Of a stretch of 64,000 bases of DNA, positions 20,301 to 64,000 are shown in pieces. The notes under the pieces were generated by a model. It did not search any database and had not been told where the DNA came from. It saw only the letters and a list, made by a program, of their open reading frames with translations. The stretch spans positions 1 to 64,000 of the forward strand of contig QPMI01000529.1 of NCBI GenBank assembly GCA_004431415.1, in the 5' to 3' direction. The stretch's first letter is position 1; every line of letters begins with the position of its first letter. Position numbers and translations under genes: made by a program. This DNA is from Cyanophora paradoxa CCMP329. Its lineage: Eukaryota; Plantae; Glaucophyta.

Positions 20301-20605
20301 GGCGTATAAAATCTATACTTAACGCGTACGTGCGTCGCCGCCGGCCAGGGCGCAAGATCGCGATGGCGTCAACTTAGGCGGGGTCGGCTAGCACTCACAT
20401 GGACAGGGCCGGCGTGCTTCGACCGCACGATGAGCTTGGCATGATGAGGAAAGGCGGTCCGCAGCGTCAGCGGCGCCACGGCGGCCGGCGCTGCGACGGG
20501 CGCCTTGATGACGGCTTTGACGGCGCCGGCGAGCTCTGCGGGGAGCAGGAAGCGACGGCCGGCCGAGGGCCGCACAGCGATCCTAGCGAGGGACAGGGAC
20601 AGCAT
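17345..20605 (-). CDS. ACS: Acetyl-CoA synthetase family acyl-CoA ligase, copy 1, with N-terminal organellar targeting peptide
   Basis: [25 protein letters not shown]-loop [53 protein letters not shown]. Exon 1 ([19 protein letters not shown]..) is R/A/S/L-rich and nearly free of acidic residues. Confidence 0.95.
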
Positions 20606-23600: not shown

Positions 23601-24212
23601 CGACACGGTCAAGTTCCAGGGCAACGACGTCTACTTCACGGGCGACGGCGCATATGAGGACAAGGACGTGCGCCCGCACCCGCGCTTTCTGTTCGCTGCG
23701 GCCCGTCTGACCGTTGCGCGTTCAGGGCTACATCTGGATCACGGGGCGCGTCGACGACGTGATCAACGTGGCCGGCCACCGCATGGGCACCGCTGAGATC
23801 GAGTCGGCGATCAACCACTGCTCGCTCGTCGCCGAGAGCGCCGTCGTCGCCCGCCCCGACCCCATCAAGGGCGAGGCCGTCGTCGCGTACGTCGTCCTCA
23901 AGGCTGGCGGTGCGGATTTCCAAGCATTTCCGACCCCGTGTTACATGGGGAGCCGCGCTCACGGCGGCGGGGGCGTGCGCAGAGGGCCACCGGACGCAGA
24001 AGGAGGTGGACAAGGCGGTGCACGAGATGGTGTACCACCACATCGGCAAGATCGCGCACCTGGACACGCTGATCGTCGTCCCCGGGCTGCCGAAGACGCG
24101 GTCGGGCAAGGTGATGCGGCGGCTGCTGCGCTCGATCGCGCGGGGAGAGGCGATCAAGCAGGACACGAGCACCCTCGAGGACCCCGCCACCGTCGAGGCC
24201 GTCCTCGACGCC
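17402..24212. repeat. Large inverted duplication: arms ~17402-20636 and ~20975-24212 with a ~340 bp unique spacer
   Basis: Reverse-complement near-identity of exons and most introns between the two ACS copies. Confidence 0.95.
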
Positions 24213-24269
24213 GCCCGCAAGCACGCCGCCGAGGCCTCCAAGACCGCCGCGACCGCCGCCCACAAGTAG
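21006..24269 (+). CDS. ACS: Acetyl-CoA synthetase family acyl-CoA ligase, copy 2 (inverted paralogue)
   Basis: Same motifs and intron positions as copy 1. Exon 1 is 21006-21206, intron 1 is 21207-21532 (GTGAGT..CGCAG), stop TAG at 24267-24269. Confidence 0.95.
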
Positions 24270-24848
24270 AGCCCCCTCCGCCCATCCCCCATTCGCCATC
24301 GACGCCACCGGCTTTCCTCCCGGCCTCGCGCTGGACCCTTCCTTTTTTTCGAGCTTTCTTTCTCATGAACATAATTCTTTGGATGTCTCTGCTTCGTTCA
24401 ATTGTTGTCTTGTTGTAGCATTTCTGTATCGGCGTGTGCAGCATGAGGTTATAGATTTTTCGCTGCACAAGTGACTGTGGGTGTCCGATGTAATTCATTC
24501 GCTAGTGCTGCTTCTCTTTCGAAGGTCTCGGGTATACGTATTCATAGGCAGCGCCTTCGAATTTTGCGAGTGGCAGTATATGTATGTGCTTTAGGTACAT
24601 ATCCATGCAAGGGTAGCTAGGATAGAGGGCAGCTGCAAATAGATAGAGCGCTGGGTCCACCTGCGCCGCTGTAACAATTCACTCGCGCGATCTCTATGTA
24701 ACCGGCCACACGCATATGCGCATATATGTTCGCAGTGTCCCACGCGGCTCGTTCAGAGTGGTGCATTGTTTGAAACAGGTGGGGGAGAAGGGGAGTGGGG
24801 AGGCGGGGTGAGGGCCGAGGCCGGCGGGGGCGGGCGCCGTGCGGGCCG

Positions 24849-45400: not shown

Positions 45401-48400
45401 TGCAAAGAAGGCATTAGAAGCGAGCCTTTATGTGCGTTTTAGAGTCGAACTTGACGACTGTAGAGTAAAACGCTTGCGACTCAGTGACGGCTACTTTCGT
45501 GTACCAGGTTTTGCCAGTGCCGTCCATAACCTGATCGAACAGGATGTAGCGTGCCGTTTATATTAATTATAATGAGTAAATGGATATGCGGGCGTCGGGA
45601 ATACCTGAAGCACGACTTGCTTCGCGATGGCCGCGACGACTCCCCCAAGACCGGACGATTGCTTGATCCATGACACATTCCATACGCCGCAGTCGACGCG
45701 GTGTGCGTCGAGAACGAAGGGCAAACTAGTGTTTCCGCCGATGAATCCCGCTGCAGGCAGGCCTGTTGGCCGACATTCACGATCAGTCCGCTACATATAC
45801 ATGTGCTGAACGCTCTATTAGACTCATGGATGATCATCAGTCCGCTCACAACTAGTAGTGTATATATTGGATTACGTATATACGTATGCATATGGAATTG
45901 AAAAAAGACGTGTGGTCATGAACCGCATGCGCACCTGGCATCTGCACAAGAAGAGGGGGCGCAAAATATCCAGGCTCAACGCTGGCCTTGGTCTTGTCAG
46001 TCGGATCGATGCTCAATCCTTGGAGTTGAAATCTGCCGTCAAGCTTTAAGCAGCTGCAGCTTAACCAGGCGTGTGCCCTTAAAGAATTCCAAACGCATGC
46101 GCACGAATATACAATCCCTGCAGAATTTGAATCGAATATTGCATCAGAGACCAGGAGATGCGCAGCAAAGGTTGGGACCGAGTGAGGTCACTGATCTAGA
46201 TGTACCTGGTAGCAAATTGAAAATTTGCAGCGACTTCGCGTAGAAATTCGGGCTCGGAACGTCTGCAATTGCAAGACACAGCAGTTCGTGAGCTTGAATG
46301 GCTTGTGACGTCGACACTCGGGTTTTCACGCACAATCGTAGTAAGGAGCGGATGTTGCTGGCGCAGTGACCATGAGGGCTGGATCAGGCTCGGCTGTAAT
46401 TGTTCCGACGTTGCGGACGCATTGCTTTGCAAACGCGGGCTCCGGATTCAAGCTTGGATTGCGGTGGAAGCCTTCCGTGCACGGCTGGCCGCTTGGGGTC
46501 CTCGGGGGCAGGACCAGGGCCTGTTTGAAAGAAATCACAAAATACGTGCGGATCTAGATATCTCATGCATCCACGTTCTAAATTTAAATATCATCTGCGG
46601 GTCGGATGGGGGTGTGGGGTGTGGGGTGACGTGTGTGTGTGTGGGGGGGGGGGGGGGGGAGGGGGGGGGGGGCTCGAGGGGACGAACCTGGTAGTAATTT
46701 GCACCGGTGACGAGATCCCAAGCGATTGAGAAGACAAATCGGCCGGGATTGCTGAGGTCTGCTGCAATGGAACCGAACCGGACATTCAAAGGCGCCGGCA
46801 AAGGCTCCCCTGGGCGGAACCATCAGGTTGTCGGTATCGCAAGCTTCGAAAAACGCGTATGCTCACGAAGAGTGCTGGTGAGGAGAAGCGGGGCCGTTAC
46901 GATGCTTCCATTTACAAGTAGAGCCTCGACAGCGACTGTGTATTCTTTTCGAGCACATGCAAGTAAGAGACGCATGCGCACGGGTAAGAGCGAGCGTTTG
47001 CGGACTGGTATTGACGGCAAGGCCAGTGAGCTTCGCGGTGTACTCAGTTCGGTACGATCCGGCAGCGAGAGTCGCTGGGAGGACATATCCCTCCGGAGGC
47101 ACCATCTGCGCATGCGTTCGTTTCACTCGCGTAGTTTTCCATAAGTTGTATACATGGAGCTTGTGCGAACCGAATCAGCAAGCAGCCTGGCGCATATGGC
47201 GCGAGGACTTGAAGTGTCGTATAGCATCGCCATTCTCTCACCTGACGGGCATGTTTCGGGGGCGATCTTTCCGGACAAGTCGGTTTTGAATTCAACGGCC
47301 CCGCTTGCGGGCAGGGCATCTGCTGGTTGGGCCATTTTCGCTTCGAAGCTTGCAGCGGCAAACCACTGGGTGCCGAGCGTTGGGTTTGCAGGGGAGCCCG
47401 TAGCTGGCGTCAACGAGTGCATGACCTGCGTGCATGTATGTATATATATGCATGCATATGCATTTATTATGCACGCTCACCCGGAAGGCGGCTACTTCGT
47501 CCGACATTATCTGTACGCTCGGATAAATCCAAGATACGACAATGTAGTTCGAGGCCCTGTCGATCACATGAGTTCTTCTCCATACACTGAACGGCAGGCG
47601 CTGCACGTCATAGGCAATATAGGCACCGGCGCATGGCCTTCGATCCAAAGCGGTTGCCCAGACTCTCGGGGTTCGCTGGTGTTGTGGGCTGGGGCGGGCA
47701 CTTCGTCGCGTAGATTGGAATGAAGTCCATAGTGTTCTAGATATGATCCCGGGTATGGTTAGCTATAGCTAACGCGTTCGTCCTCCCGATCGCGAGAGCA
47801 CCTTCCAAATCCTGCCCTTTCAATTAAATAAAGATAACATAAATTTGTAAATAGAAAGGAGAGCATGCACGCACTTTGATGTGCTGTCCTGCGCGCACAT
47901 CCGAAAACGGTTGTTTCAGTTTTGACCAACTGTATGCGCACAAGCGAAACAGCTCGTAATCGTACAAAATAGTGGCCGGCTATCATATAATTCAGACCAG
48001 CGCCACCAGGCATCTTCAGAAGGCCATCCAATTTCAAGAAACCGCCGACAAAAGGATAGAATCCAACCTGTATCTCGAGTGTCAAAGGTTCAATTTAGAG
48101 CTGTCCAGCGTTTGCGGCGCACCCAAATCTGTATCGCGCCCGGGCAGCCCCCGCCTTTGCTGCCGATCTAAAAACCGATGTCAGCGAGCTGGAGCGGCGT
48201 TCGAAGCCACGCACGCACTGGTTGCCACAACAGACCCAACTTAAAGTACACGGCTGCTTGGAACTGAATAAATCGAATCCCGTATACACTATGTATATCA
48301 CTCAAATCAGTTCGATGTTTGGATGTTTCGAAATCGAAATTTGAAGAGCACCCGAAGTCAAGGTCGATTTCAGGAACAAACTGGATCGCAAAGTTGAGAT

Positions 48401-51400
48401 CTGCAATTCGGCAAGCCAGCTCCTCATCAGTTCATCGTGACACTCAATCAACAATCAAGACAGGAGGCCAGCTACAGCTGCTCGCACATACGTCGGTCGG
48501 CGGGTTGAAAACAGGCGCCTGGTGCCATGAATAATCAAACAAATCAGCGAATACAAGATAAAACCCAATCGCAAGATCTTTAAACAGAACTACGCGCCCG
48601 GAAACTTGGTGCTTCTCCATCCATCCTTTATATTGTACCCATCGTTCAGAAAAATGAGAACTATATATACATCAACTTGCAAAGTTTCGCACCAGCCCGC
48701 GATCGGCGTGACTTTTCCTGATACGACAGTGAGAGAAGTACAGCAGGCCCCAGGCAGGGCCTAGCTTCAGATCGCTTTGCACCGTCTTTGAACTGGATTC
48801 CAAATTCGATCCCGCCATTAAGGGACCTTGTACGGGGGACGCGGTAGGTCGAACAGCAAAATTAAGCAGAACATGCATACCCTTCGAGATTGTTATCCCA
48901 TTGAATGCTTATAGCTCCATAGCATCCTAGATTGACCTGTCATGCTGATTTTAGACTCAAAGACAGTCAGGGCCTCAGCAAGCTCGATTCTTGAAGAATG
49001 CGCACATGTAGCTGGCGATGGACGATGATGTAGTGCTCAGTCAGAAAAGATGCATATGTGCACCCGCAATTCCAGGGAACGCTCAAAGCGCTTACCCCCG
49101 GCACGACGGTGACGACGACTGCAAATGGCCGAAAAGAACCGAAATCTTCAGAGCAAGTGCAAAACCAAGCAGTTGTAGAATAAATTACGCGAACCAGGCC
49201 CAACGTTAATATTCTTTATCCATTCCTTGCCTGCATAAAGTAGCGCTCAAAAAAGTGTGTCGTACAAAAGACAAAGCGGCGCGCCACACCCCAAATTTCT
49301 TGTTGTTTTCCGATGTCACCTGAACTGCGAAGAGCACCAAATATATATTCATGTGTTTGAAAGAGGACAAACGATTTTGATGAATTCAAAGGCAACAAGA
49401 CTTGTCAAGCGTACACGTTCACATGGATGTCAATGCTGAGTGCCGCTTTAATGCCGGCGAACTCTAAAATACCGGCAGTTAGTTATATTGAACTCGATGC
49501 TGAAGCCATTATATATATCACGCTAACGCACTTGTCAGTGTAATTTGTTTTAAGTTGTATTCCTCAATGACAAGTTCGAACTTGACGCCTGTGCCGGCCC
49601 AGAAATATCTACACACCAGCATCTCAAGAAATAAAAACCCAAAGAGCGGAGGGGCATGCTTGCATCTCTTTAGGGTCAATATCCATAACTCCCCACATAT
49701 CGTAGAAAGTCGATCCTTTCGAGCCCTGAATTCCGAACGATGCGCGCAAGCCGGAGGTCAGCGAACGGGATTGGAGTTCGATTCGAGACCTGATTCCGGA
49801 GCAAGAAGATCGCACGCACAGAAAATGAAAAATCTGCAAGCAGGAACACGTGATCATTGGCATCGCTTTGCACTAATTTATGGGGCATCTCAGGAAGCTG
49901 ACACGATACGTACCCCAAACTATGTGTGGAAACTACGCAAGAGAGAGGGCGGTTCATTATCGGAGAGACCATTCGAGGGAAAGTAGAGGAACGCGGCTAA
50001 AAACCTTTCTCAGTTGCTTGTGAAACACCTCGTCGAAATTGAAGCTGATTCCCCACGTCGGAACCCTGAAGTAGATTTCACAGTCGCCTCCAATACACTG
50101 CGCGATCCCGGGCGCGACTCAACTCCTCTTCGCGCTCCAAAAAGATTGAAGGGCAATACGACCGACCGAAATCGCCTCGAAGGCCAGAGACGCGATGTCG
50201 AGACCACGGTTAACCGACTCGCCAAACTGCTCGCCAGGGCAAGAAGAGCGTCGCCCACAATTGCAAGCACGTGCATGCATATGTGAGCACGCGTATACGT
50301 TAACGTTTGTGGCTCGGATGAACCGCTTTCAGAGATCTAAAGCAAGGCGCACGTCTTTTACTCCTGTGACCGCAACATTTTCGATAACTTCCAGCGTTTT
50401 GGTAACTGGATTCAAGATAAAATCCAGCTTGCCGCCTTGGAAGAGTCGGCATCAACGGTTTTGAGCGGGAGCCAGATAAAGAAGCAATGTGGCAGCGCAC
50501 CTGTGACTGCACTTGCCTGTTCGATTGTATGTTAGCGCGTGCGCATTATAATTACGTTATTCAATCATGAATCAGAGCGCACGACTTCGAGGAGCATCTT
50601 AGGAACGTCGAGAACTTTCTTGACAACCTGGGGCGCCATCGATATCGATACCAAGCCCTACATACATATGCGCAGCGAATGGCCGCGAAAGTGAACAAGT
50701 TCACGTTTACAAACCTGGACAGCTACGTCCTAGAAGAAGGTTACAACCGCAGAAGGTTAGTGTACGAAAACGGCAGAGGATTTCGCTTTTACGAACTGTG
50801 ATTGCGTTGACGATTTGTTTAGCTGCTTTTGGAATGGCGGCCTGCCGCGAGCGTCTGTGAGGAGACAAGAGTACTAGCCAATTTACGAGTGCGAAAGCTT
50901 GAGTGCGCACTGCTACTTTGGCGAACAGATTGATGCCTTTGCGGACCACGTTGCCAACTTCGTAGAAAGCCTTGGTCATTCCCGCTGCGAGAGAAAAAGC
51001 TCAAGGGGCCTGTTTATATCCGACGACAGGATCACTCATCCGCACGCACTTTTATCCATGACGCCTAGTATAGGATCGAGAATTGCGCCTTTTATGCCGT
51101 GCAGAACCTGGCCGACTACCTTGCAGCAGTCTCTGATTTCATCCGCAAAAGGCAAACTTTTCAGGAAACCTCCAAGAAAAGTAAGCTTGCGGCCTTGGCT
51201 TTGGCTCTGTTCGGCCTTAGCCCCGTCCGGCCCTGGTCGTTTACGTATACGGCTGCGATGACCAGATCCGGACGCCAGGCCTCCGGCCTCGTTCATGGTT
51301 GCGAATGCAGCCGCAGATTCTGACTTTGGACCTGCAATAATTAGTTAGACGGGAACGTCTCAGCTATATATGTGAGATAAAGCTAATCAAACCCTCGAAG

Positions 51401-53706
51401 TTGTGACCCCGGACCCTGCCAAACGACTTGTAAACGTGCTCTGATACCTTACGCGAGCCCGGACCCCTGTGAAGTTGATTGTCAATGTCCAGTGCGCCGG
51501 ATATATCATGATCAAGTAAAGAGCGCAAGCGTGAACGCAATTATCCAACATTGCAACTAATATCGCTTACGTGAACTCGTTATTAATATCTTCATCGTGG
51601 AGCTGGATGTGCAGATCCTGCGTCTCCACATGAGCTCACCGGACACCTAGATCTGACTTGTGCATTGACCTTAAAAATGTCCTGCGCCCGATATTGGAAT
51701 TCGTCTTTATACTATACTCGTAATGAAGTAATATAGAAGAAATGGTTCACCGCGAGGACGGCGGGCTCGGTCTCCAGCTCGACGCAGAGCCCGCGGATAG
51801 TGAAGACTTCATCCTCTTCCAAGTCAAGTTCTAAATTCGCCTGGCCTCGGCTTCCGCCTTCCACCGCAGTCACGGAACACTCTCGCGAATGAACCTGCAT
51901 GCAAGCGGTTGCAAGTTCGGCAAGCTTCATTGCAATGCCATGGCCAGCCAAGTGCTTGCGATCGCTCACCTCAACAATCTTGACCATCAATCCGACCTGA
52001 CCATGCCCCGCGCATTTCATTACAACATTCAATGATAAGGCATCGTCTTCCGAACGAAAATTGTGAGCTTATTACCGTACCTTTCCCGGCTTCTTTGTTC
52101 TCATTCCGTACTGACGGCGAGGCACATTGGGCTCGTCATCTTCCTCGTTTACAGCGTGTGTGCGCCCACAATCCCTGCGCACGCGTGAGGTGTCAACCCC
52201 AATAGCCCCTCGGGTCGGCTACAGCTGCTGCACGCGTACGCTTGAGATCTAGAGTGCAAATCAGGAAAAAAGTTTTTAGGAGGCGAGAGGGTGGTACAGA
52301 TAAATGACGGTGGGAGGGGGGTGGGTATCGCAGCGAGAGAGCCGGGAGGCTTCATAAAAATGAGCATCTACCAATCTAACTGGCGTGGGTGGGTGCTAGG
52401 AAAGCTCCAAAGTGACGCAGAAGCTTGAGAAGAACTTGCAGGTGGTTGGTTTGAGAAAAACTCGAGCTTGAGGGGGGGAGGCCATTGCAGCGGAGGGAAT
52501 TCGAATTGAAAGGGAACGGACGTGCACGTGCGCTGCATATTCAAGCATTCGATCCGGTACTGACCAGTGCGTCTCGCCGACGACGATGGCTCCCGGTCGA
52601 AACTTGCGCGCGTGCACGTGCACGTGGGCTTCCCGTTCTTCGTGATCCCCGTGGCCGTGCCCATGATTGGTGGTCGATCCACCAAGAACAATTGACACGG
52701 AAGAAGGGACGTCCGCGCAATGGACAGCGAGTACGGCGGGCTCTTCATCGAGATTCACCTGCAGGCTTCCGTTGAAAACCACTATTAATATTGAAAGCGT
52801 TTCTGTCAGCCGTCGCACCACATCGGCCGTCTGCACTGCCTTGAAGGCATAATGGGTTCTCTTGCCTGAAAGCACAAAGACGTTTGCAACGTTGAGTTTG
52901 AAATTGACATGAAAGGTAAATTATAATAACATAGAAAGAGCCTGCACTGCGCACCATTTCTGTGTAGTCGAAACTCCTCGTGCTGATAGTCGACATCACG
53001 CGCGGCCCGGCCCCCATGAATATTCAATATTAATAGGGATTTCGCGAATCGAAGTGCATTAGGATCGCTCAGTAAGCTTGCGCACGTCGTAGTGATGGTG
53101 TCCGGTGGTGGGGTCAGTCCGGCGCTACGTATACGTGTATATGCGTGCCGCAGTGCAAGCAGTGTGAGCGCGCGGCCGAGCTAATCTTTTGGCGCGCAAC
53201 GCGAGCAGCGGAGCGATCCGGAAAATCTGGAGCACCTTGGCGTCCCAACCAAGCGGGCGCGGCCGGCTCCCGTGTTTCGCGGGTCTCGAGATGAAATGTT
53301 GAGGTCGCTCGCGATGGGGTTGCTTATGCGATCGATACATATCTGAACGTTCGTTCTTAATCCGACTATTATGTTCTTCAAATTCATGCATTTGGTCATC
53401 ATCATCACTTTTATCATCACCAAGCTCGCGATTGGTCACGGGCTCACGCGTGCGCATTGGGCCTGCCGCTGCGGGCACCCATACTTAAGAATACCAAAAC
53501 CCGCTGATTTCGACAAAAAAATGAGAGGTGCTAGCATACAGACCTGAAACTTTGTAAGCGTACTCGTAAGCTGCATCCCGTTTATGTGTGGCATGAGTCT
53601 GTGCTTGCACTTCTTGGACGTATGCGCAGGCACAGCTACAGATGCATAGAGCAAACACGGACAGCAACAGCAGCGCCTGAGTTTTCGACGCTGCAGCTGG
53701 TCCCAT
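39410..53706 (-). CDS. Giant putative GPI-anchored cell-surface protein with Pmp-like right-handed beta-helix repeats, FN3-like and EGF-like segments
   Basis: N-terminal signal peptide (MGPAAASKTQALLLLSVFALCICSCACA); GGA(V/L/I) and FxxN repeats at ~41000-43200; Cys-rich stretch at ~40300-40460; C-terminus SNSAAG..LWALLSAWVAVYAAAAF*. All coding-like exons lie on the minus strand, but continuity as one gene is not proven. Confidence 0.6.
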
Positions 53707-53944
53707 TTGCGTGCTTGCGCTGGCGGACAGAGTTATCGCGGATCGATGTCCCCGACCAGGAAAACACGCGCGTGCGCAGTACTAGCCTAGTAGTACACTG
53801 TGACACCTTCCAACCTCCCGCTCCGGGACTTAGTTAACCTCTACATCTGGCTGCCCGGCCGCAGTGCTAGTACGAGCCTACTAGGCTAGTACTACGGTAA
53901 CCTAACAGTAGTACTCAGTGACTGAGAGTCTGAGACTCAGTGAC

Positions 53945-54011
53945 TACCGTGTGGCACGAAAATTACCGTGTGGCAATTTAAAACCACGGCAATTTAACTA
54001 CTCCTACAGTA
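53945..54011. mobile_element. MITE fragment (one end related to the element at 54633)
   Basis: GGCAATTTAA repeats ending TCCTACAG-TA, the reverse complement of the TA-CTGTAGGA..TTAAATTGCC end at 54631. Confidence 0.55.
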
Positions 54012-54242
54012 CTAGTACGTAGTAGCACCGATCAGCTTGATGATGGCATCATGATGCGCCTTGATCTGACTTGCGCATCGATATCATGGGATTCATGGCA
54101 TGCCGATACCGGTAGTCTCCTGATTCCTGAATCGATATGACGACGATATCCTGGCATAATCCTGCCATGGCCATTGGCCAGACAGCAGTGCCACACTGCC
54201 ACTGTCTGGCAGTGTCTGCCAGCTGCAGCTACTACGCGGCTA

Positions 54243-54594
54243 CTGTAAGCCGGGAAATATTTAGTATACTGGATCTTTATAGTACCAAAGTTTTGAGGCC
54301 TGACTACTAAAGTTTTATCGTATACTAAACCGAGGTGCGAGGGGGGGTACGTAGCCCGCGCGCGCAGCCAGAGTTGCAGTGCGGGAGAAGCTAGCTATAG
54401 TGCGAGGGGGCTTCCGGACTCTCCAACAGATCAAGACCCCCTGGCGCGCCCACCCCCTTCCAGACTTGAAAGGCCGCTACTAAAGCGCTCCGCGCGGCTA
54501 TCTCTTAATTATTTTCAGCCTACTAAACCGACCAAACCCCGGGATTATTAATTATTTTGGGGTCTTAAATATTACCCGACTCGGCGAATTACAG
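54243..54594. mobile_element. TA-flanked MITE (Tc1/mariner-pogo-like), imperfect TIRs
   Basis: TA|CTGTAA..CGGGAAATATTTA at the left; TAAATATTACCCG..TTACAG|TA at the right; internal TACTAAA repeats; non-coding. Confidence 0.6.
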
Positions 54595-54632
54595 TAATCT
54601 CCCGAGTCCCGACTCCCGAGTCCCGACTAGTA

Positions 54633-54857
54633 CTGTAGGAATGCTTAAATTGCCGCGTAGTTAAATTGCCGAATTCGACCAAAACCGGAATTGCCGTGAC
54701 GATAGATTGCCGAAACTCTGGATTTCTTCTATGGCGCCATACAAAAGCGGCCGTTTAGCCCTACCCCCTGAGAATTGCCGTGGCTTAAAATTGCCGAATT
54801 CGGCCTCTCGGCAATATACGGCAATTTAAAACATCGGCTAAAAAAGCATTCCTACAG
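54633..54857. mobile_element. TA-flanked MITE (Tc1/mariner-pogo-like)
   Basis: Perfect TIR CTGTAGGAATGCTT / AAGCATTCCTACAG, TA on both sides, multiple subterminal ATTGCCG/CGGCAAT repeats. Confidence 0.85.
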
Positions 54858-55080
54858 TACTCCCGACTCGAGAGTCGAGTCCCGACTCCCGACTCTCTCG
54901 AGTCCTGACTCCTGACTCCTGAATCGATATCCTACCAGACAGTGCCAGTTATATATGAGGGCCATCAATGGGCCAAACGCGAAAAGGCAACTCCGAGAGC
55001 TCGAGACTCGGAAGTGACGCTTGGATTGCGGAGGTTCTTATAACCGCCGCAACAGCTGTGGGGGTACCCCCTCCGAGGCT

Positions 55081-55191
55081 GGCGATCGCGGCGATCGCGA
55101 CCCGATCGCGACCCTGGTGATCGCGACTTTCTCCCGATCGCGACCCTTTTCGATCGCGATTTCGAGATCGGGGGCATTTCTGCGATCGCGA
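55081..55191. repeat. Cluster of seven GATCGCG motifs (CGATCG/TCGCGA palindromes)
   Basis: GATCGCG at ~55084, 55093, 55104, 55119, 55136, 55152 and 55184. Confidence 0.85.
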
Positions 55192-55318
55192 GAAAGGAAA
55201 AATCGGAAAAGGCCGAAAAGTGCGTTTTTCACGCGTGAAATCGACCGAAAACGAGGGTTCGAATCCCGGGCCCGGATTTGGACTTGGGCAAAATCTCGGA
55301 CTGAAATGGGAGAAAAAT

Positions 55319-55400
55319 GGGACCTGGGACTTGGGACTTGGGACTTGGGACTTGGGACTTGGGACTTGGGAAGAGTTGGAATCAGAGTCTGGACTCAAAA
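55319..55400 (+). repeat. Module 1: (GGGACTT)6 GGGAAGAGTT plus tail
   Basis: Six perfect heptamers at 55326-55367, preceded by the variant GGGACCT. Confidence 0.95.
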
Positions 55401-55427
55401 CGGGGAAATTTTCGGAGGGGGAGAAAA

Positions 55428-55898
55428 ATGTCAGGCAATCTCTATTACGATTTCCCCTTTGAGTTGCATATGGCATTCGAGAGGCTGCGCGAGTTCTGGC
55501 GTTGGCACCTCACAGGACATGACATTCCCGACATAACACCAGAGCCCAACACACAGGGCGTGCTTGAAGTCATCCGTCAATATCCGCGTCGATTCAATGA
55601 ATGGATCGAGTTCCACGCAACGAACCGTTTCCAGAGTCTCCCCGAGGCCATACGCGAAAATTTCGTGAGGCTGGTGGGACCAGGCTACGACAACCCTAAC
55701 AATCATAGACCACGCCCAGCTGGCGTGACGCGCGAAGCTCGAGAAGACCGTAGACTTTTCCGCAGGGAATTGAGAGAGGATAGACGGAGGCTTTCAATGG
55801 GGCTCCCGCAGATTGTGAGGGGGTACAGCCCGGATTACGAGACTTACCAAGAATTGTACGGCTTCGAAAATCCCTTTGAGAGGGTACTACCAGGGTGA
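55428..55898 (+). CDS. Viral hypothetical protein (156 aa)
   Basis: Intronless ORF MSGNLYYDFPF.. preceded by TTTTCGGA-N8-AAAATG. Confidence 0.7.
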   Translation: MSGNLYYDFPFELHMAFERLREFWRWHLTGHDIPDITPEPNTQGVLEVIRQYPRRFNEWIEFHATNRFQSLPEAIRENFVRLVGPGYDNPNNHRPRPAGVTREAREDRRLFRRELREDRRRLSMGLPQIVRGYSPDYETYQELYGFENPFERVLPG

Positions 55899-56236
55899 GG
55901 GGCCAGGGGGGGCCCCTGAGGGTGTACCCCCCATCCGAGACTCGACCTTCGGCGGACGCACTCGGGCAATTTCCGTCAGGCCGGCTCCTTTTTCTGTCTT
56001 CGGTCCAACGCTAAATTTGGCTTTTTCAGGCCAGTTGGCAACGTTTTCCGTTGCGAACTAGCCCAGGAAAAAATTCGCCCACAAAACCGCGGTCCGCCGC
56101 CATTTTGGCTCACTCTTGAAACGGGTTCGCCGCCTTCTCTCAGCCCAAGGAATCCCCGCCTCTCCGAATTTTCACAAGTCCGCTCTCTCAGTCACCTCAC
56201 GTTTTGCCTTTGCTGATCTCTCTTCCCTTTGCGCAG

Positions 56237-57292
56237 ATGTCGATTCCCTCTGAGCTTGTCGAGGACCTTGCCAAGGCCCGTGAGATGTGGGCTAAGTCCC
56301 GCGATTGGCCTACCCGTGAAATGGAGAAGCGTGCCCGCAAGCTGGGGTACCTCTACCAAGCTCACAGCGGAGAAGGCTTCCATACCATCAACCTCAACTT
56401 TGTATCCACCCTTCTGCCCAAGTCCAAGCAACCCAAGCCCGAGCCCAAGCCCGAGCCCGTCGACGTGCCCCCCGTCCCCGGCTGGGTCAAGACTCCCACT
56501 GGCTGGGGCGACCCCAAGCTTTTCGCCGAGTCTGCCGCCGAGACGCTCGCCTGGGCCTATCCCCCTCAAGTCTTCACGAATTTCCCCCCTCCGTCATCGT
56601 CGTCATCTGCCCCTCAGCCCGTCGCCGAGCCCGCTCCCGAGCCAGTCGATGACGCCGAGTCCGAGGCCTCTGACGCCGAGTCTGACATCAACGACTTTAT
56701 CGACTTTGACGTGCCGATTCCATACGACTCTGAGTCCTCTTCCGACTCTGAAGGCGACAACGAAAACCCGACTCGCAAGCGCCGCATTATCAAGACCAAG
56801 TCAATCGTCAAGAAGAAGTTCATGGAGACCACGTCATTCACCGACAACTCCGAGCGAGTCAAGAATCCCGCCAAGGAACACGAAAAAGACTTGAAGATCG
56901 GCGCTGGCATTGCCCGTTCTCGCGTCACGTCACACTTCAGCAAGCGCCTGACTCAGCACGTCAAGACCATTGAGAAGCGCATCATCGCCAAGCGCGAAAT
57001 GGCCGAACTCCGGCGCAAGTTGCGTCACGAGCGCCTTCTTCGTCGCGAGATGACGCTGGCCAAGATTGCCGAGCGCAAGAAGAAGGAGGCAGCGGAACTT
57101 AGGGCGCGCGTCGAGGCTCAGCAGCGGCGCGAGGCAGAGGCGGCAGCGGCCTTGGCGGCGCAGCGCGAGCAGGAGCGGCAGGACTTAGTGCAGGCAGCGC
57201 AGGCCCTTCCCCGCATTCCCCTTAAGTCCGCGCCCGAGGCCCCGATTGACTTGGTTTCCGATGACGATGATTCTGACTTTGAGATGCTGTAA
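56237..57292 (+). CDS. Putative nuclear regulatory protein (acidic tract, NLS-like RKRR, coiled coil, C-terminal SIM-like IDLVSDDDD)
   Basis: 351-aa ORF from the ATG directly after an acceptor (GCTGAT..pyrimidine tract..GCAG). TGTAA/TGTA motifs follow the stop. Confidence 0.75.
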   Translation: MSIPSELVEDLAKAREMWAKSRDWPTREMEKRARKLGYLYQAHSGEGFHTINLNFVSTLLPKSKQPKPEPKPEPVDVPPVPGWVKTPTGWGDPKLFAESAAETLAWAYPPQVFTNFPPPSSSSSAPQPVAEPAPEPVDDAESEASDAESDINDFIDFDVPIPYDSESSSDSEGDNENPTRKRRIIKTKSIVKKKFMETTSFTDNSERVKNPAKEHEKDLKIGAGIARSRVTSHFSKRLTQHVKTIEKRIIAKREMAELRRKLRHERLLRREMTLAKIAERKKKEAAELRARVEAQQRREAEAAAALAAQREQERQDLVQAAQALPRIPLKSAPEAPIDLVSDDDDSDFEML

Positions 57293-57363
57293 ATAGTATT
57301 GCGTCATTCCATTGTACATACTTGTAAAAATTGGCCGACTATTCAGTTATGACTTGGCGCGAT

Positions 57364-57472
57364 CCTGGGACTTGGGACTTGGGACTTGGGACTTGGGACT
57401 TGGGACTTGGGACTTGGGAAGAGTTAGACTCAGGGTCTGGGCCCAGACTTTCTCTGGATCTGAGAGTTTGCC
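57364..57472 (+). repeat. Module 2: CCT(GGGACTT)7 GGGAAGAGTT plus ~45 bp tail
   Basis: Seven heptamers at 57367-57415; direct repeat of module 1 and inverted repeat of module 3. Confidence 0.95.
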
Positions 57473-57791
57473 GTGCCAAGTCCCTAACCACCGGGCAGAC
57501 TTAGAAAGGGGTACGGAAATTTGGATACGACGTTTCTGGTGACATTCCAGGTGAGATTTCAAGCGAGGTAGAGTCTGAACTGGTGTACGACTTGTAGCAT
57601 GATACTGGACATGAAAGCTCACGAGAGTATGCAACCGAAAAAGGATGTGAAGAGGGGTAGGAGTATTCGTGCGAGATGTCGAGAGAAGGAGGGTACGAGA
57701 TGGGATACGAGTAAAAAAGACTACGAGTAAAAAAGAGTACGAGGGGTGGTAGGAGTAAAAAAGTCGGTAGAAAAACTCACCTGACTTGTCT

Positions 57792-57886
57792 GACAAATTT
57801 CTGATCCTGGAGAAAGTCTGGGCCGGGACCTGGGTTTCAACTCTTCCCAAGTCCCAAGTCCCAAGTCCCAAGTCCCAAGTCCCAGG
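57792..57886 (-). repeat. Module 3 (inverted): CCT(GGGACTT)5 GGGAAGAGTT plus tail
   Basis: (AAGTCCC)5 at 57849-57883; the tail GGCCCAGACTTTCTC..GGATC is shared with module 2. Confidence 0.95.
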
Positions 57887-57907
57887 TTTTTCTGAACCTA
57901 GGGCAAA

Positions 57908-58271
57908 ATGGCCCTGCTCCGGTGCACCGACTCGCAAGACGTCGCCTACAACGTCCTGGTCAACTCGGACGTACCCCCGAGTGCCTTGGAGTTTCCCTGG
58001 AGAGTGGACAGGGACAGGGTGAGCAAGACGTTTGGAGGGCGCAAGCACTACCTCTCCCAACTGATCCTCGGGAAGTCGCCACGTGGACGCTACGTGGAAC
58101 ACATCAACGGCAACCCGCTGGACTACAGGAGGGAGAACCTGCGCTGGCATCAATGTCGGATATTCGCAAGAAGAGGAGGGGTACGCCAATTTACAGGAGA
58201 AGAGCGAGGAGATTCGGGAGATGATGGAGGCGGCACAGGCGCTAATGCAGCTTAGCCAGTCTAGACGCTAG
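57908..58271 (+). CDS. Degenerate HNH-endonuclease-like protein (probable frameshift near 58145)
   Basis: YLSQLILG..YVEHINGNPLDYRRENLR resembles the HNH consensus DHINGNxLDNRRxNLR. An alternative frame continues into EEEGYANLQEKSEEIREMMEAAQALMQLS. Confidence 0.7.
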
Positions 58272-59073
58272 TGGTGTGAATCTTGGTGTCGTACTCGCGA
58301 CCAACCGTTTCCCAGGCCACGTAAACTTCGGCTCCGGCGCCTGGCGCTGTCGAGTTGGTAGTCGCAGTCGTGTAGTCCGCCTCTGCCTCAATTAGTTCGG
58401 CCATGAGGGTAGAGCCCACGACCATTCCAGAGGTAGGCATTCCGGCGATGTTGTTGTACAATTTGAAAGTGAATTTCGTGAAGAGGAGCCGGGGCCAGAC
58501 CTGGGTACGGGGATTCGAGGCGCCGTATGAATAATCGGTACCCGAGGCGCCGCCCGTGGTGGCATTCGTCATCATCTCCTTTGCGGTCATCTTCCAGAGG
58601 TTGTACATCTCAAAGGGAACGGCCTGCGTGGTCTTGTGTGTGGCATCGATGAGGGCGCCATCTAAATGCGTTTTGATGTTCGGATTCGCACCATTCCCGA
58701 ATTTGCGAGTGAGGGCGGTGTTAGCGGTGAACTTGAGTTCGAGCACGCGAATGGCGGGCCGATCAGGCACAGAGGGCTCTATCTTTTTCAGGAGGCCCGA
58801 GAGCCAGAGCGCCTCCGCCTCATCCGCGCTCACGCCCGAGTCGATGTCAAAGTACACGTACACGGAGCAGGAGGCGGGATTCTCGAAATCGTTGGAGGTG
58901 ACGCGCAACATGACGGGATTCTGGACCCTCACGGTGAGCGGGGTGGCGTAGTTTCCGTCCCACTCCACCTTGTCCGTCCCTGCGTTGGCCACGTTCCCAG
59001 CGTTGCCGTAGAAATCGGGGACGATCGAGCCGGCAGACACGGTCTTCACGATGGTGGCCGAGGTGGTCGGCAT
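58261..59073 (-). CDS. Viral hypothetical beta-rich protein, paralogue A (possibly structural)
   Basis: Intronless 270-aa ORF with AAAATG start; aligns by eye with the upstream ORF (QNPV, SGLLKK/SGLVKK, LELKF/LEVKF, PRxxFTxFxF). Confidence 0.8.
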   Translation of the reverse strand: MPTTSATIVKTVSAGSIVPDFYGNAGNVANAGTDKVEWDGNYATPLTVRVQNPVMLRVTSNDFENPASCSVYVYFDIDSGVSADEAEALWLSGLLKKIEPSVPDRPAIRVLELKFTANTALTRKFGNGANPNIKTHLDGALIDATHKTTQAVPFEMYNLWKMTAKEMMTNATTGGASGTDYSYGASNPRTQVWPRLLFTKFTFKLYNNIAGMPTSGMVVGSTLMAELIEAEADYTTATTNSTAPGAGAEVYVAWETVGREYDTKIHTTSV

Positions 59074-59096
59074 TTTGCGACCTCAAATGAGAAAGA

Positions 59097-59776
59097 TTAT
59101 CCGTGAAAGAGGGTGATGTCGCCACCGATGTTCATGACGCGGGCCCCAGGCACAGAGTCAGCGTCGGTGCCGTACGCGTAGGAAATCGAGCACTCACGCA
59201 GCTCCGCGCAGAGGCTGGCGCCCGTGCTGAAGTGGGGCTGGTCGGCGGCGTAGGAGAGGGGAAGACCTGGAACCTGAAAAAGGTGAAGGGGAAGCGGGGT
59301 AGAGTCGAGCCGCGTGGGTTGCCGCCCGTGTAGAGGGCCCCCAGGGTCGCGGGACTTGGATTGAATTTCGTGAAGAGCACGTCGCCCTTGAGCGTACCCC
59401 TCATCTGGTAAGTTCCCGTACCCGGAAGATTCGAAGAACTGGGGTACCGGTTCACGGTGGGGCCGTACCCCGTCTCCCTGAACTTGACCTCGAGACAGCG
59501 CAAGACGTTGGCAGTGGCCGTGGCAGGTGCCACCTTTTTCACGAGTCCTGATTCGTGCAGCAGCTCGATAACCTCTGCGCTGAGGCTCAGAGGGTCGAAG
59601 AAGAGCTGGTAGGAATAAATCTTGGGCGTGGCGTAGGCGTTCTGAACGACCTGAATCACGACGGGATTCTGCAGAAAGACGTCGACGTAACTGCCGGAGG
59701 GTATGCGTGCGAAATCCTTGGTGTTGTTGCCAACGTCAAGTGAGCCGCTGAGGGTCTGGTACCAGTTGGAAGTCAT
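59097..59776 (-). CDS. Viral hypothetical beta-rich protein, paralogue B (one frameshift near 59260)
   Basis: ORF 59132..59776. A shifted frame gives STGASLCAELRECSISY..PGARV..FHG*, which matches paralogue A (VGSTLMAELIEAEADY..PGAG). Confidence 0.75.
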
Positions 59777-59814
59777 TTACCCCGGGCAGATATTTTTTCG
59801 GATCGTAGAGGAAA
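59777..59814. promoter_or_regulatory. 38-bp bidirectional intergenic region containing TTTTTTCGGA-N9-AAAATG
   Basis: Divergent ATGs at 59776 (-) and 59815 (+). The motif recurs upstream of the ORFs at 55428, 57908 and 63042. Confidence 0.65.
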
Positions 59815-61954
59815 ATGCCCCGCTTCGTATTCGTGAAAAAGCAGGTGGTGCAGGCTCCGCAGTATGGCGTGGAGCCGATCTCGCTGACTGTGGGCAGGCC
59901 CCAGGTGCGATCGGGCTCCGTGCTCAACAACGGGAACAGTACGTACGGCTTTCAGCTGAACTGGGTCGCGGTCACCAACGCCGTCAAGTACAAGGTGTAC
60001 AGGGCGACCAGCATCAACGGCCCCTGGGATCTCGTGGCCACGGTGAATGCGCCAACCGTCACCTACACGGACTCTCCCTTTAGTTTGGGGCCCAGCGACT
60101 CTACCGCGTGGCGGCGGTTCGCGAACAGGGCAGCAGCAGCACGGGCTCTGATGGCAAAGCCCCGCCCACAACCTACGCACAGTCGCTTCTCTACACCCAC
60201 GAGGGTGCCATGAGCAATTACATTCTCTTCCAAGGCATAGGCGGCTTCAGCCCGCAGATCGAAGCCTACACCACGCTCACGACCGCCACGGCCCAGACCT
60301 ACGGCGATTTTATTGCCGGGGGCGGCCCCGCGTCTTCGGGCTTCCCGAAACCCGCCATAGTCGTCACAATCAACTGGGTGGCCATGGAGGGCGCGGACTC
60401 GATTCGAATTTACAGGAACGGTACGCCAATCGGATTTGCGAGCAGTGCCCTGTCTACCTCGTACATTGACGATAGCACTGCTCTTACGTGGGGCACGGAA
60501 TACTCTTACCAGGTGGCCGGCATCGTGGGCGGTGTCGAATACGACAAGTCCGATCCGCTCCTGGTCTGGACTATGCCAAACGCCCCCACGAACGTGACGG
60601 CATCAGCACCCAACGACCAGCAGCAGCCTGTCAGCCTCAGCTGGACTGCGTCCACGGGAGCGACGGGATACAAGATTTACAGAGACGGGGCCTACCTCAC
60701 AGACTCCGCGACCAACTCCTACAGCGACACGACCACCGTCTGGGGTACAGGGTACGAGTACCAGATCTCCGCGACGAACACGGGAGGGGAGGGGCCGAAG
60801 AGTATTGCGGCGTACGTCACCACGGACCCGGGGGCGCCCACTGGGCTCACTGCAACCCCCGCGGCGGGGGCAGCACAGCCTGTTGTGCTCGAGTGGTCGG
60901 TGCCGGTGACGGGCGTCACCGTCTCCTACAACATCTACAGGGGTGGCGTGTTCCTTGCCAGCGACACGAGCAGCCCCTTTTCGGACACAACGACCGTTTA
61001 CGGAACCACTTACACTTACACCATCAAGGGCGTCAACCAGATCGGCGAGGAAGGCCCTCAGTCCTCGTCTGCCAGTGCAACAACTGCAAACGCTCCTGTT
61101 TTGGGTACATTCTCCTACACCGGGGCCGACCAGACTTTCGTAGTACCAACGGGGACTGTGGCTGTGCGTGTCATCGTATGGGCGGCCGGGGTGGAGGCGG
61201 AGAACGCGCAGGTACGGGGGTCCGTGGAGGCGCGGGTGCTTGCGTAGTTGGTACATTGGCTGTGTCCTCGGGGGAGACGCTCATCCTTGTTGTTGGATGC
61301 GGCGGCCCAAAGGGTGTATCGGGGACTGCCACTGCTACCGTCTACGGAGGTGGTGGAAGGGGCTGGAGCCATAGCGTCGATCCGGAGTACAAAAACGGCG
61401 CCGGTGGTGGTCGTTCTGCAATTCAGCGCGTTGCAGGGACCGACTTGGTTGTTGCAGGGGCCGGAGGTGGGGGTACATGTGATTCGAATGGCGGCGGGGG
61501 AGTAGGCGGGGGGTTGACCGGTGGTGCGGCTGGGTTGGTTGGAGTAACCGGAGAGATACCGGCTCAAGGAGGCACCCAAACCGCTGGCGGAGCCGGTGTT
61601 GTGGCCTCAGGGGCCAGGCCCAGCAACCCGGGAACTTTGCGCCAAGGTGGAGAGACTGGGCCTGATTCAAGCGGCTACAGGTTCGGTGGTGGTGGTGGTG
61701 GTGGTTACTTCGGTGGAGGCTCTGGGTCCAGCAGGAGCGGAGTGTCAGAGAACCCAATAGCAAGAATGTTTGGAGGTGGCGGTGGCTCGAGCTACATAGG
61801 AAACTTGACGGATGCTACGGTGTATCCTGGGTCCGGCCAGGTGGCAGGAAATAGCGGAGACGCTCACTACGCAGCAGGCATTGGTAGGGGCGGCAACGGT
61901 GGCTCGTCTTTCAGCGACGGTGGCAACGGTCGAATTGTGATACTCGCGGTGTAG
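59815..61954 (+). CDS. FN3-repeat plus C-terminal glycine-rich (ALK/LTK GRD-like) protein, about 710 aa after correcting two frameshifts
   Basis: Four FN3-like units (LxW..YxVYR/IYR..YxD..YxVxA) then FSYTGADQTFVVP..GGGG..GGYFGGG..GGGGGSSY..GGNGRIVI. Frames rejoin by adding one G at G-runs near 60090 and 61190. Confidence 0.8.
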
Positions 61955-61974
61955 TTATTCCTAGTTGTTCCAGA

Positions 61975-63042
61975 TCAGCTCGCCAGTGCCGCTACCTGGT
62001 CTTTGAGAGTTTGAACTTCTTGTGAAAGTTCCTGAATTGCCTTCAACGACAGGGAAATGAGCCTGTCGTAGTTTACCCCGAGAAATCCATCCGCGTTCTC
62101 GAAAACGAGACTCGGGAAGACGCCTTGGACTTCCTGTGCGATGAGACCGTAATCCGTTTTCGAACCCCCCGAGGATGTGTTCTTCCAGGTGAACGACACG
62201 GGATTCAGCTGCAGCAGAAGAGGGAGAATGCCCGACATGCTCGCGACATTTTCTTTCAGGCGGCTATCGCTCGACGAGTTTGTCAGGTATCCTTGAGCAT
62301 CCGAATAAACGGCTCGGTTTCCATCGCCCGTGAGCGTCGAGACGATGAGCCGACCCGTGATGCCAACGCCGACGGTTCCGCACAGCAGTCGTTCGGTGCC
62401 GTTGTTTCTCAAGGATAGACCAGAGCTGACGCTGACGCTTCCGCTATCAACGATTGAAGTGTTTGCTATGCTTAGGCCATTAGTAGGGCCTTCGATTGCC
62501 GAGGTAAATAGAGTACCTGTAACACCAACGCCAAGAGTCCCACAGAGGAGTCTATCGTTTTCGTTGTACTTTATAGCTACGCCTGAACCACCGCCATTTA
62601 TGTACGGTGACGTTCCGGTAATTTGCAGCTTATCGTCCAATGTAACGATGCCCGCCAAGTTTGAAGCCCCGCTCACCCTAAGCCCCCCCACCACGTTTGC
62701 TCCGCCTCCTTGCACATACAGAGCCGCATTCCCCTCCCCGTTCACAGTCCCATTAAAGGTCACCTGATTCGTGGTGTACCCGCTCCCGTCCCAGGCCCCG
62801 TTCGTGACGGTGAGCCTCTGCGTCCTCACGCGCCCCGGCACGGCCGACCCGCCCTCCCGCGTGCGCATCTTGTCGCAGCGCAGCTCGCCGACGCGGACGA
62901 GGTCGGCCTCGGAAAAGGGGACGGCCGTGGCGTTGTAGGGGGCCTCGGTGGCCTGGTTTCCGAGGGTGGTCTCCTTAATCGTGTGATCGCCCTTGTGATT
63001 CACGCTGGCAGCATAGGTAAATAGAGGGACAGCGACCGACAT
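61975..63042 (-). CDS. Fibre/spike protein with C-terminal intramolecular chaperone autoprocessing (peptidase S74) domain
   Basis: SSDSRLKENV..LNPVSFTWK..GLIAQEV..FPSLV..VNYDRL..KAIQEL then coiled coil; internal repeat RLLCGTxGVG(V/I)TG occurs twice. Confidence 0.92.
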   Translation of the reverse strand: MSVAVPLFTYAASVNHKGDHTIKETTLGNQATEAPYNATAVPFSEADLVRVGELRCDKMRTREGGSAVPGRVRTQRLTVTNGAWDGSGYTTNQVTFNGTVNGEGNAALYVQGGGANVVGGLRVSGASNLAGIVTLDDKLQITGTSPYINGGGSGVAIKYNENDRLLCGTLGVGVTGTLFTSAIEGPTNGLSIANTSIVDSGSVSVSSGLSLRNNGTERLLCGTVGVGITGRLIVSTLTGDGNRAVYSDAQGYLTNSSSDSRLKENVASMSGILPLLLQLNPVSFTWKNTSSGGSKTDYGLIAQEVQGVFPSLVFENADGFLGVNYDRLISLSLKAIQELSQEVQTLKDQVAALAS

Positions 63043-63066
63043 TTTTGGATTGCATCAGAAAATCGA

Positions 63067-64000
63067 TTACATAAGCAGCTTGCCGATCGCGGTCCAATGA
63101 ATAAAAAGCTGGACAATTTGGGTGGGCGTGACCGTCATTCTGGGTTGGAATCTCACTTTAACTGTAAAGCCAGTGTGACTCACCGCCGTGACGTTGGCCC
63201 CGTAGAAATCGACATCCGTGCTGCCGCCGGGATTGATGTCGAACGAGGGGGTTACGTTAATAACCGGCGTTGGGTTTGCTGGGGTCCCCAGTCCGCCTCC
63301 AGTGTCGTACGCCTGTCCGAATGTAATGTTGAACGTCACCGTGTATGTTGAATTGATGTTAAACTCCGTGTACGCAGCGTAGGAGTGGAAGGACGTGCCG
63401 TGCGTTATGTACGCATCCATGTTCACGTTTCTGTGCCCGTGGCTGGTGAGCGAGTACTCTGTGTGACTGTGCGTAGAGGGTGGGAAGGAAGTGGGTCGGT
63501 CGATGACATTATCCCAGTACACATTGTGACTGTGTGTAGAGGGGGGGAAGGTAAGTGGCTTGCCCGTTACGTTGTCCCAATCCACGGAGATGTTCGTCAA
63601 GTCCGGGGCCGTCCAGTCGCTGATCTGAGAGATGGTGTGCTGGTGGTCTGCGTGGGGATACGTACTCGGCTTCCCCGTGATGCTATCCCACGCCCACGTT
63701 GTTGGTATCACGGGTATCGTCGGCCTCCCGCTGAGATCTGCATACGCCCCCGTGTGTGCCACCGTCGCCAGCTGCGGCACGGCAACGCCCACGGTGCTCA
63801 CGGCCTGGCTCGCCCCCGGCGCCATGTGCCACTCGTAGTTCTGCGATGCAAACACGGGCTGGCCTGGCTCGGGCGCCCAGTACTCGATGCCTTTGGCGAT
63901 CTTCTTGGTGTATGGTGCTGCAGGCCTGTCAACCAATTTATCGACGTAGGCCTTGGGTACCAGCCAGTTTGCCTTGGGGCTCTGCGAATTGATCCCGTTG
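63067..64000 (-). CDS. Phage-tail-fibre-like protein (5' end outside the window) with C-terminal H-lectin/gp53-like domain
   Basis: Frame is open to the window edge (VPKAYVDK); LATVAHTGAYADLSGRP; three W(D)xxxx(K/R)PxxxPxxxHxH repeats; C-terminus TGFTV..IHWTAIG. Confidence 0.85.
   Translation of the reverse strand, partial: NGINSQSPKANWLVPKAYVDKLVDRPAAPYTKKIAKGIEYWAPEPGQPVFASQNYEWHMAPGASQAVSTVGVAVPQLATVAHTGAYADLSGRPTIPVIPTTWAWDSITGKPSTYPHADHQHTISQISDWTAPDLTNISVDWDNVTGKPLTFPPSTHSHNVYWDNVIDRPTSFPPSTHSHTEYSLTSHGHRNVNMDAYITHGTSFHSYAAYTEFNINSTYTVTFNITFGQAYDTGGGLGTPANPTPVINVTPSFDINPGGSTDVDFYGANVTAVSHTGFTVKVRFQPRMTVTPTQIVQLFIHWTAIGKLLM

What the first reader, a model, noticed from the sequence alone, without database searches (positions are those of the whole stretch)
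54950..64000. Endogenous virus with a cluster of bacteriophage-style fibre genes in an algal nuclear genome
Seen: an S74 chaperone fibre, a His-repeat tail fibre with lectin-like tip, and an FN3/Gly-rich protein side by side, contiguous with intron-rich host DNA. Established: Polinton-like viruses and virophages integrate in protist genomes and often carry fibre genes. Inference: an apparently intact element of that class; its family cannot be fixed from this window.
Basis: partly seen in the sequence, partly recalled or inferred. Interest (0 to 1): 0.7.

Follow-up and report, generated by a model that had tools for sequence, protein, structure and literature searches.

The report
Multi-copy fibre-bearing virus in glaucophyte alga
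This is one end of a virus-like element present in about 40 or more copies in the genome of the alga Cyanophora paradoxa, carrying phage-style fibre genes that likely attach the particle to cells; such integrated viruses are already catalogued in this alga, so it is mostly ordinary, though sibling copies carry different fibre tips.

Summary
Observation confirmed, with corrections. From ~54,950 the window holds a dense, intron-free gene block: S74 fibre, FN3/Gly-rich gene, HNH, an orphan paralogue pair, and the last 310 aa of a ~1,640-aa repeat fibre. All close homologues are Cyanophora paradoxa gene models on at least 41 contigs, with conserved order on 11. Short-read contigs show single-copy host DNA to ~54.3 kb, a host MITE-like palindrome, then a shared end at ~54,950 with varied flanks (10-63x depth). 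No phage match. 'Apparently intact' is not shown: one frameshift shown, three inferred, and no capsid, ATPase, replicase or integrase lies in the window. Low-confidence models put the orphan pair with T7-type ssDNA-binding proteins, which, with the tandem arrays near the end, tilts towards a mriyavirus/gamadvirus-like element rather than a classical PLV; family not fixed. Published surveys already list 366 capsid hits and 156 EVEs (37 with S74) in this alga. This scan noted what appears to be a sibling copy on other DNA (e1-10416734). Small addition: three fibre-tip types on near-identical shafts. New member of a known kind; interest 0.3.

The parts
54560..54940 (.). Host MITE-like palindrome just outside the element (not part of the virus)
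   Evidence: Arms 54,610-54,674 / 54,816-54,877; DNA fold z -7.4/-8.8; summed contig depth about 170-290x single copy
54950..55250 (.). Left end of the multi-copy element; short palindromic repeats (5 copies of an 8-mer within 60 nt), hairpin-rich
   Evidence: Loose ends and joints at 54,950 with varied flanks; depth 10-63x single copy at 11 sampled place-run values; fold z -3.2 to -4.2
55300..57900 (.). Sub-terminal block with three G-rich tandem arrays of a 7-nt unit (two direct, one inverted), bracketing two orphan ORFs and a 355-nt spacer
55428..55898 (+). Orphan ORF, 156 aa
   Evidence: No Pfam or PHROG family
56204..57292 (+). Orphan ORF, about 350-362 aa, acidic then basic low-complexity
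   Evidence: No family above cut-off; no relative in IMG/VR
57908..58255 (+). HNH endonuclease, likely frameshifted near 58.14 kb
   Evidence: PF13392 E=5.7e-6; PHROG HNH hits; break inferred from the two frames
58261..59073 (-). Paralogue A, 270 aa; predicted (low confidence) T7 gp2.5-like OB-fold ssDNA-binding protein
   Evidence: Homologues: C. paradoxa plus 2 environmental proteins; fold searches
59100..59776 (-). Paralogue B (226 aa in five sibling gene models), frameshifted here near 59.26 kb
   Evidence: A vs B 38-40% over 68 aa, E=3e-11 to 7e-12; P0064 maps in two frames; cluster of 5
59815..61954 (+). FN3-repeat plus Gly-rich (ALK/LTK-type) gene, likely one gene with two frame breaks; likely virion surface protein
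   Evidence: PF00041, PF12810; PHROG major-tail FN3 hits; frames
61975..63042 (-). S74-chaperone fibre, 355 aa, with the Ser-Asp-x-Arg-Leu-Lys cleavage-site motif (motif recalled) present
   Evidence: PF13884 E=2.7e-14; PHROGs
63067..64000 (-). C-terminal 310 aa of a ~1,640-aa fibre: His-containing tail repeats and a weakly H-lectin-like tip; upstream (outside the window) a charged coiled-coil-like stretch and two hydrophobic segments
   Evidence: three tip types among siblings

Best explanation
The window ends inside one copy of a multi-copy endogenous DNA-virus-like element of Cyanophora paradoxa, most likely a small capsid-coding relative of mriyaviruses (gamadvirus side of the PLV-NCLDV continuum), whose fibres would attach the particle to a cell and whose orphan gene pair is predicted to bind single-stranded DNA during replication. 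Shown: defined left end, dispersed copies, conserved gene order, three fibre-type genes. Inferred: the S74 domain chaperones trimer folding and cleaves itself off; the long fibre binds surface glycans through its tip; the paired OB-fold proteins coat displaced single strands, as strand-displacement or rolling-circle replication needs; capsid, ATPase and replication genes lie beyond 64 kb. Copies are likely silenced by CpG methylation in the host.
For: Homologues of the pair are C. paradoxa gene models on 41 named contigs; on 11 contigs the long fibre lies 2-4 gene numbers from paralogue A. End depth 10-63x single copy and varied flanks at 54,950. AAA precedes 5 of 7 starts against 7 of 174 ATGs in the region; SD-like motif at 2 of 7. 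No blastn match in 50,697 phage records. Two models rank T7 gp2.5, DUF2815, Enc34 SSB and ASFV CP312R as the top four of 48,161 chains (Z 5.7-4.0, rmsd 3.9-5.0, 107-121 aligned; Z 4.7-4.3, rmsd 4.5-4.9, 123-146 aligned); 3 of the top 4 BFVD rows are named phage ssDNA-binding proteins (best E=0.008). [quoted passage not shown] C. paradoxa MCPs in PMC10120064 fall in two 'new' clusters, and the six listed examples have NCLDV capsids as HHpred hits. A PTR-PTR-H_lectin fibre was reported from an MCP-centred C. paradoxa EVE (PMC12220804).
Against: No capsid, ATPase, HUH, helicase, VLTF or integrase gene is in the window, and none could be linked to this family here. Both models have mean pLDDT 37-40 and Z under 6, which the tool calls middling; the two models share most input sequences, so they are not independent; no sequence-level SSB hit. 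T7-like SSBs also occur in four NCLDV families, and a tandem pair amid fibre genes could be structural (Atlas lead: Bbp16 at 0.84, weak). 85 of 156 glaucophyte EVEs carry rve and 107 a PLV-type ATPase, so the prior for a PLV-like element is high. No search found a paper placing mriyaviruses in Cyanophora.
Confidence: 0.52

Rival explanations
1. It is a classical Polinton-like virus (rve-integrating, with pPolB or primase-helicase), and 54,950-57,900 is one long terminal inverted repeat.
For: S74 fibres are described as near-ubiquitous in PLVs, and PTR-PTR-H_lectin was reported in a C. paradoxa 'PLV'. Glaucophyte EVE table: rve 85, PLV-type ATPase 107, pPolB 49, S74 37, HNH_3 40 of 156. A sharp shared end with varied flanks fits integrase-mediated insertion.
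Against: Only 2 of the 156 glaucophyte EVEs hit that paper's main MCP profiles. The predicted T7-type SSB pair and tandem arrays match gamadvirus descriptions. An earlier unreviewed note reports HUH genes beside what appears to be the same gene set.
Confidence: 0.3
2. It is a capsid-less, non-autonomous satellite or decayed derivative that borrows capsid and integration functions from another element.
For: No capsid gene in 9 kb; one shown and three inferred frame breaks; many sibling gene models are fragmented.
Against: Three fibre-type genes argue for a virion; intact full-length siblings exist (226-aa B x5, 1,643- and 1,682-aa fibres); breaks fall at different places in different copies, as long-read errors in repeats do (PMC10120064).
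Confidence: 0.14
3. It is a bacteriophage or bacterial contig mis-joined to algal DNA.
For: Fibre domains match phage PHROGs; no listed single record bridges the junction.
Against: Homologues on 41 algal contigs; an HMM search of 1.84 billion proteins returned 8 hits, all C. paradoxa gene models; held by 20 listed runs of one organism label; no phage DNA match; AAA-ATG starts.
Confidence: 0.02

Closest known systems
Cyanophora paradoxa EVEs of Bellas et al. 2023 (PMC10120064) and Bulzu et al. 2025 (PMC12220804)
   Same: Same host species; S74 fibre (37 of 156), HNH_3 (40 of 156) and a PTR-PTR-H_lectin fibre are tabulated; counts are close to the 41 contigs found here.
   Different: Those papers give tallies, not a description of this family; whether this copy is among their loci, and which genes co-occur, could not be seen. 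The SSB-like pair and tip variation are not mentioned in the parts read.
'Gamadviridae', Mriyaviricetes (PEVs, Phaglo-G; PMC11253617, 10.1101/2022.07.28.501842)
   Same: T7-like SSB (predicted here); an integrated member with high GC and flanking short tandem repeats.
   Different: One SSB there, a pair here; no HUH, MCP, VLTF2/3 or RuvC seen in this window; described hosts are haptophytes; no fibre term was found in that paper's two supplements.
Gezel-14T (PgVV) PLV and mriyavirus-related PLV clusters (Zora/VC102, VC218; 10.64898/2026.06.19.733378)
   Same: Phage-like fibre found in the Gezel-14T virion; Zora-type groups combine HUH, rve and 20-30-kb size, a mix that would reconcile the two leading readings.
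   Different: No sequence link was tested; no Cyanophora mention in that preprint's main text; its supplements were not seen.

Membership tests
Polinton-like virus | Double-jelly-roll MCP, penton and A32-like ATPase | not testable with these tools
   Not in the window; no genome held; sibling gene models reach only to the start of the long fibre
Polinton-like virus | rve integrase or tyrosine recombinase; pPolB or primase-helicase | not testable with these tools
   Not in the 9 kb visible
Polinton-like virus | Terminal inverted repeats and target-site duplication | tested here: inconclusive
   One sharp end at ~54,950; the other end is outside the window
Polinton-like virus | Phage-like fibre genes (accessory, not defining) | tested here: met
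Gamadviridae / Mriyaviricetes | HUH endonuclease(s), NCLDV-like MCP, VLTF2/VLTF3, RuvC, SF3 helicase, no DNA polymerase | not testable with these tools
Gamadviridae / Mriyaviricetes | T7 gp2.5-like SSB (PEV_26) | tested here: inconclusive
   Top four structural hits in two low-confidence models, Z under 6; no sequence support
Virophage (Maveriviricetes) | Virophage-type MCP and cysteine protease | not testable with these tools
   Not in the window; published tables list 0 virophage MCPs for this host
Tailed bacteriophage | Bacterial host context, phage DNA relatives, Shine-Dalgarno starts | tested here: not met
Endogenous (integrated, multi-copy) element | Dispersed copies with a shared end and varied flanks in the host genome | tested here: met

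The most novel reading that the evidence does not exclude
A glaucophyte carries a bank of 40-60 integrated, rolling-circle dwarf relatives of giant viruses that shuffle receptor-binding tips on a 1,640-aa fibre whose coiled-coil and hydrophobic segments double as a membrane-crossing DNA conduit: phage-style host-range tuning in a eukaryotic provirus family, with a duplicated T7-type SSB.
Probability: 0.15. Interest if true: 0.6.

Novelty: new member of a known kind. Interest (0 to 1): 0.3.

Why it matters
As it stands, little: integrated fibre-bearing DNA viruses are catalogued in this alga. If the mriyavirus-like reading holds, it gives a cultured model host with dozens of proviral copies of a class that has few described hosts and no known integration route, making induction and virion tests possible. 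The three fibre-tip types on near-identical shafts offer a direct test of receptor switching in a protist virus.

Tried and rejected
No whole genome held, so the downstream 25 kb could not be read. IMG/VR scans with paralogue A, alignments A1/A2, the long-fibre end and the 362-aa ORF found no relative; both JGI metagenome scans found none. The S74 scan gave 30 loci matching essentially the chaperone region; 0 of 30 hit any of 10 other query proteins of the element. PEV record KY346835 is not held. Penton reading of the paralogue pair: no jelly-roll among the listed rows, but the models are poor, so it is not excluded. ESM Atlas: no hit at 0.9 or more for A, none usable for the fibre N-terminus. 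Sequence searches of PDB, Pfam and PHROGs with A2 were empty or chance-level. No RNA holder listed; six guessed-RNA runs hold 44-50% of words, not interpretable. Walking outward through fused sibling gene models reached the start of the long fibre and about 65 unassigned residues beyond (P0079), with no hallmark gene. The 40-54 kb low-GC stretch was considered as part of the element and rejected: flat single-copy depth over 46-53.7 kb and short frames; 4 of its frames gave no Pfam hit. Literature searches linking mriyaviruses to Cyanophora found nothing; bioRxiv supplements were not seen and may bear on this.
Full report
Observation. From 57,908 to the window's end 98% of the DNA lies in the called intron-free reading frames, against a longest stop-free frame of 192 aa in 40.5-54 kb.

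Host and copy number. 12 of 14 hits of paralogue A are EukProt gene models, and the named cluster members are Cyanophora paradoxa; the other 2 are environmental proteins at 59-60% on contigs of 1.0 and 1.8 kb. An HMM search of 1.84 billion proteins gave 8 hits, all of this family. Gene models of the pair lie on 41 named contigs; 11 of the 15 named contigs with a long-fibre model also carry paralogue A, 2-4 gene numbers away. So this is a conserved module of a dispersed element family. The fibre cut by the window end is the tail of a 1,643-aa protein (P0072, 92% over 312 aa) with a charged coiled-coil-like middle and two hydrophobic segments.

Junction. Short-read contigs were laid on 46,000-55,250 (4 of 24 listed runs). 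Depth is nearly flat to ~53.7 kb in the three DNA-type runs, and single contigs match 46,680-54,355 (X2) and 46,680-54,001 (X13) without a difference. 54,560-54,940 is a strong palindrome (z -7.4/-8.8) at about 170-290 times single-copy depth: a host MITE-like repeat, outside the virus. At 54,950 contigs begin with unrelated upstream letters (4 in X2; joints in X1 and X13), and depth beyond is 10-63 times single copy (summed contig depth is only a rough guide). No listed record bridges unique host DNA through the repeats into the genes, so this one junction still rests on the assembly.

Not a phage. No blastn match in 50,697 phage records; 1 sigma-70-like site against 1.9 expected; AAA precedes 5 of 7 starts against 7 of 174 ATGs, with an SD-like motif at 2 of 7.

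Intactness. Paralogue B is frameshifted here but 226 aa long in five sibling models; breaks in the HNH gene and twice in the FN3/Gly gene are inferred from the frames. Such breaks are often assembly errors in repeated EVEs (PMC10120064), but this was not tested.

Which virus. No capsid, ATPase, replicase or integrase lies in the window and no genome is held. Two AlphaFold models of paralogue A are poor (pLDDT 37 and 40), yet both rank the same four T7-type ssDNA-binding proteins first among 48,161 chains (Z 5.7-4.0 and 4.7-4.3), and Foldseek agrees weakly (BFVD best E=0.008, PDB best E=0.18). This is a lead, not a proof: Z is middling, the models share most inputs, and there is no sequence support. 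Gamadviruses encode a T7-like SSB (PMC11253617, parts 1-4 of 7 read), and integrated Phaglo-G is GC-rich and flanked by short tandem repeats (10.1101/2022.07.28.501842, passages). Against this, 85 of 156 glaucophyte EVEs carry rve, and a 2026 preprint describes groups mixing HUH and rve (10.64898/2026.06.19.733378, passages and section 6; supplements not seen). I put a mriyavirus-related element at 0.52, a classical PLV at 0.30, a capsid-less derivative at 0.14 and a phage chimera at 0.02.

What is known. PMC10120064 (text parts 1-2 of 7, passages, supplement rows) lists 366 MCP hits in C. paradoxa in two clusters labelled 'new', the six listed examples having NCLDV capsids as best HHpred hits. 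PMC12220804 (passages, section 13 part 1 of 2, Table S6) tallies 156 glaucophyte EVEs with S74 in 37, HNH_3 in 40 and D5_N in 40, and names a PTR-PTR-H_lectin fibre in a C. paradoxa PLV; these counts are close to the 41 contigs here, but co-occurrence is not shown. PMC8502044 (one passage) mentions adintovirus-like proteins in this alga; PMC12344493 (passages) reports methylation of its virus-derived genes. Searches for a paper placing mriyaviruses in Cyanophora found none.

What this adds. Among sibling long fibres, P0097 matches P0072 at 98-99% over residues 1-1,400 but only 60 of 111 in the tip; P0085 has a third tip (25 of 115); P0080 and P0093 keep the window's tip yet differ in internal blocks (about 58%) (5 of about 25 long-fibre models compared). 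This mosaic suggests recombinational exchange of receptor-binding tips, as recalled for phage fibres; gene-model errors could inflate the internal differences, but type-2 tips recur in at least four models.

Verdict. A real, multi-copy endogenous virus-like element of a known kind in a host where such elements are catalogued; family unresolved, leaning mriyavirus-like. Interest 0.3.

Noticed in passing
window 54,560-54,940 (partial third arm 53,972-54,016): High-copy palindromic MITE-like host repeat (about 170-290x depth) directly outside the viral end; the insertion may favour, or have been followed by, this repeat.
   Followed up: partly
window 40,000-53,000 (-): A 53%-GC stretch, single-copy where laid (46-53.7 kb), in a 71%-GC neighbourhood; appears to be one many-exon host gene with GGAI-type and Cys-rich exons; no Pfam hit for 4 frames tried.
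   Followed up: partly
window ~17,200-24,400: Two near-identical tandem copies of an AMP-binding (acetyl-CoA synthetase-like) gene.
   Followed up: no
window 55,300-57,450: The two orphan ORFs sit between 80-nt direct repeats (93% identical), like a captured cassette; sibling model P0024 shows the same array close to paralogue A in another copy.
   Followed up: no
P0009, P0042, P0008, P0012: A divergent second lineage of paralogue A (59-63% identity): two C. paradoxa contigs and two short environmental contigs, so relatives exist outside this assembly.
   Followed up: no
P0071: A 392-aa sibling joins the same repeat shaft and tip to an unrelated short N-terminus: the fibre end is also used on a different protein.
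   Followed up: no
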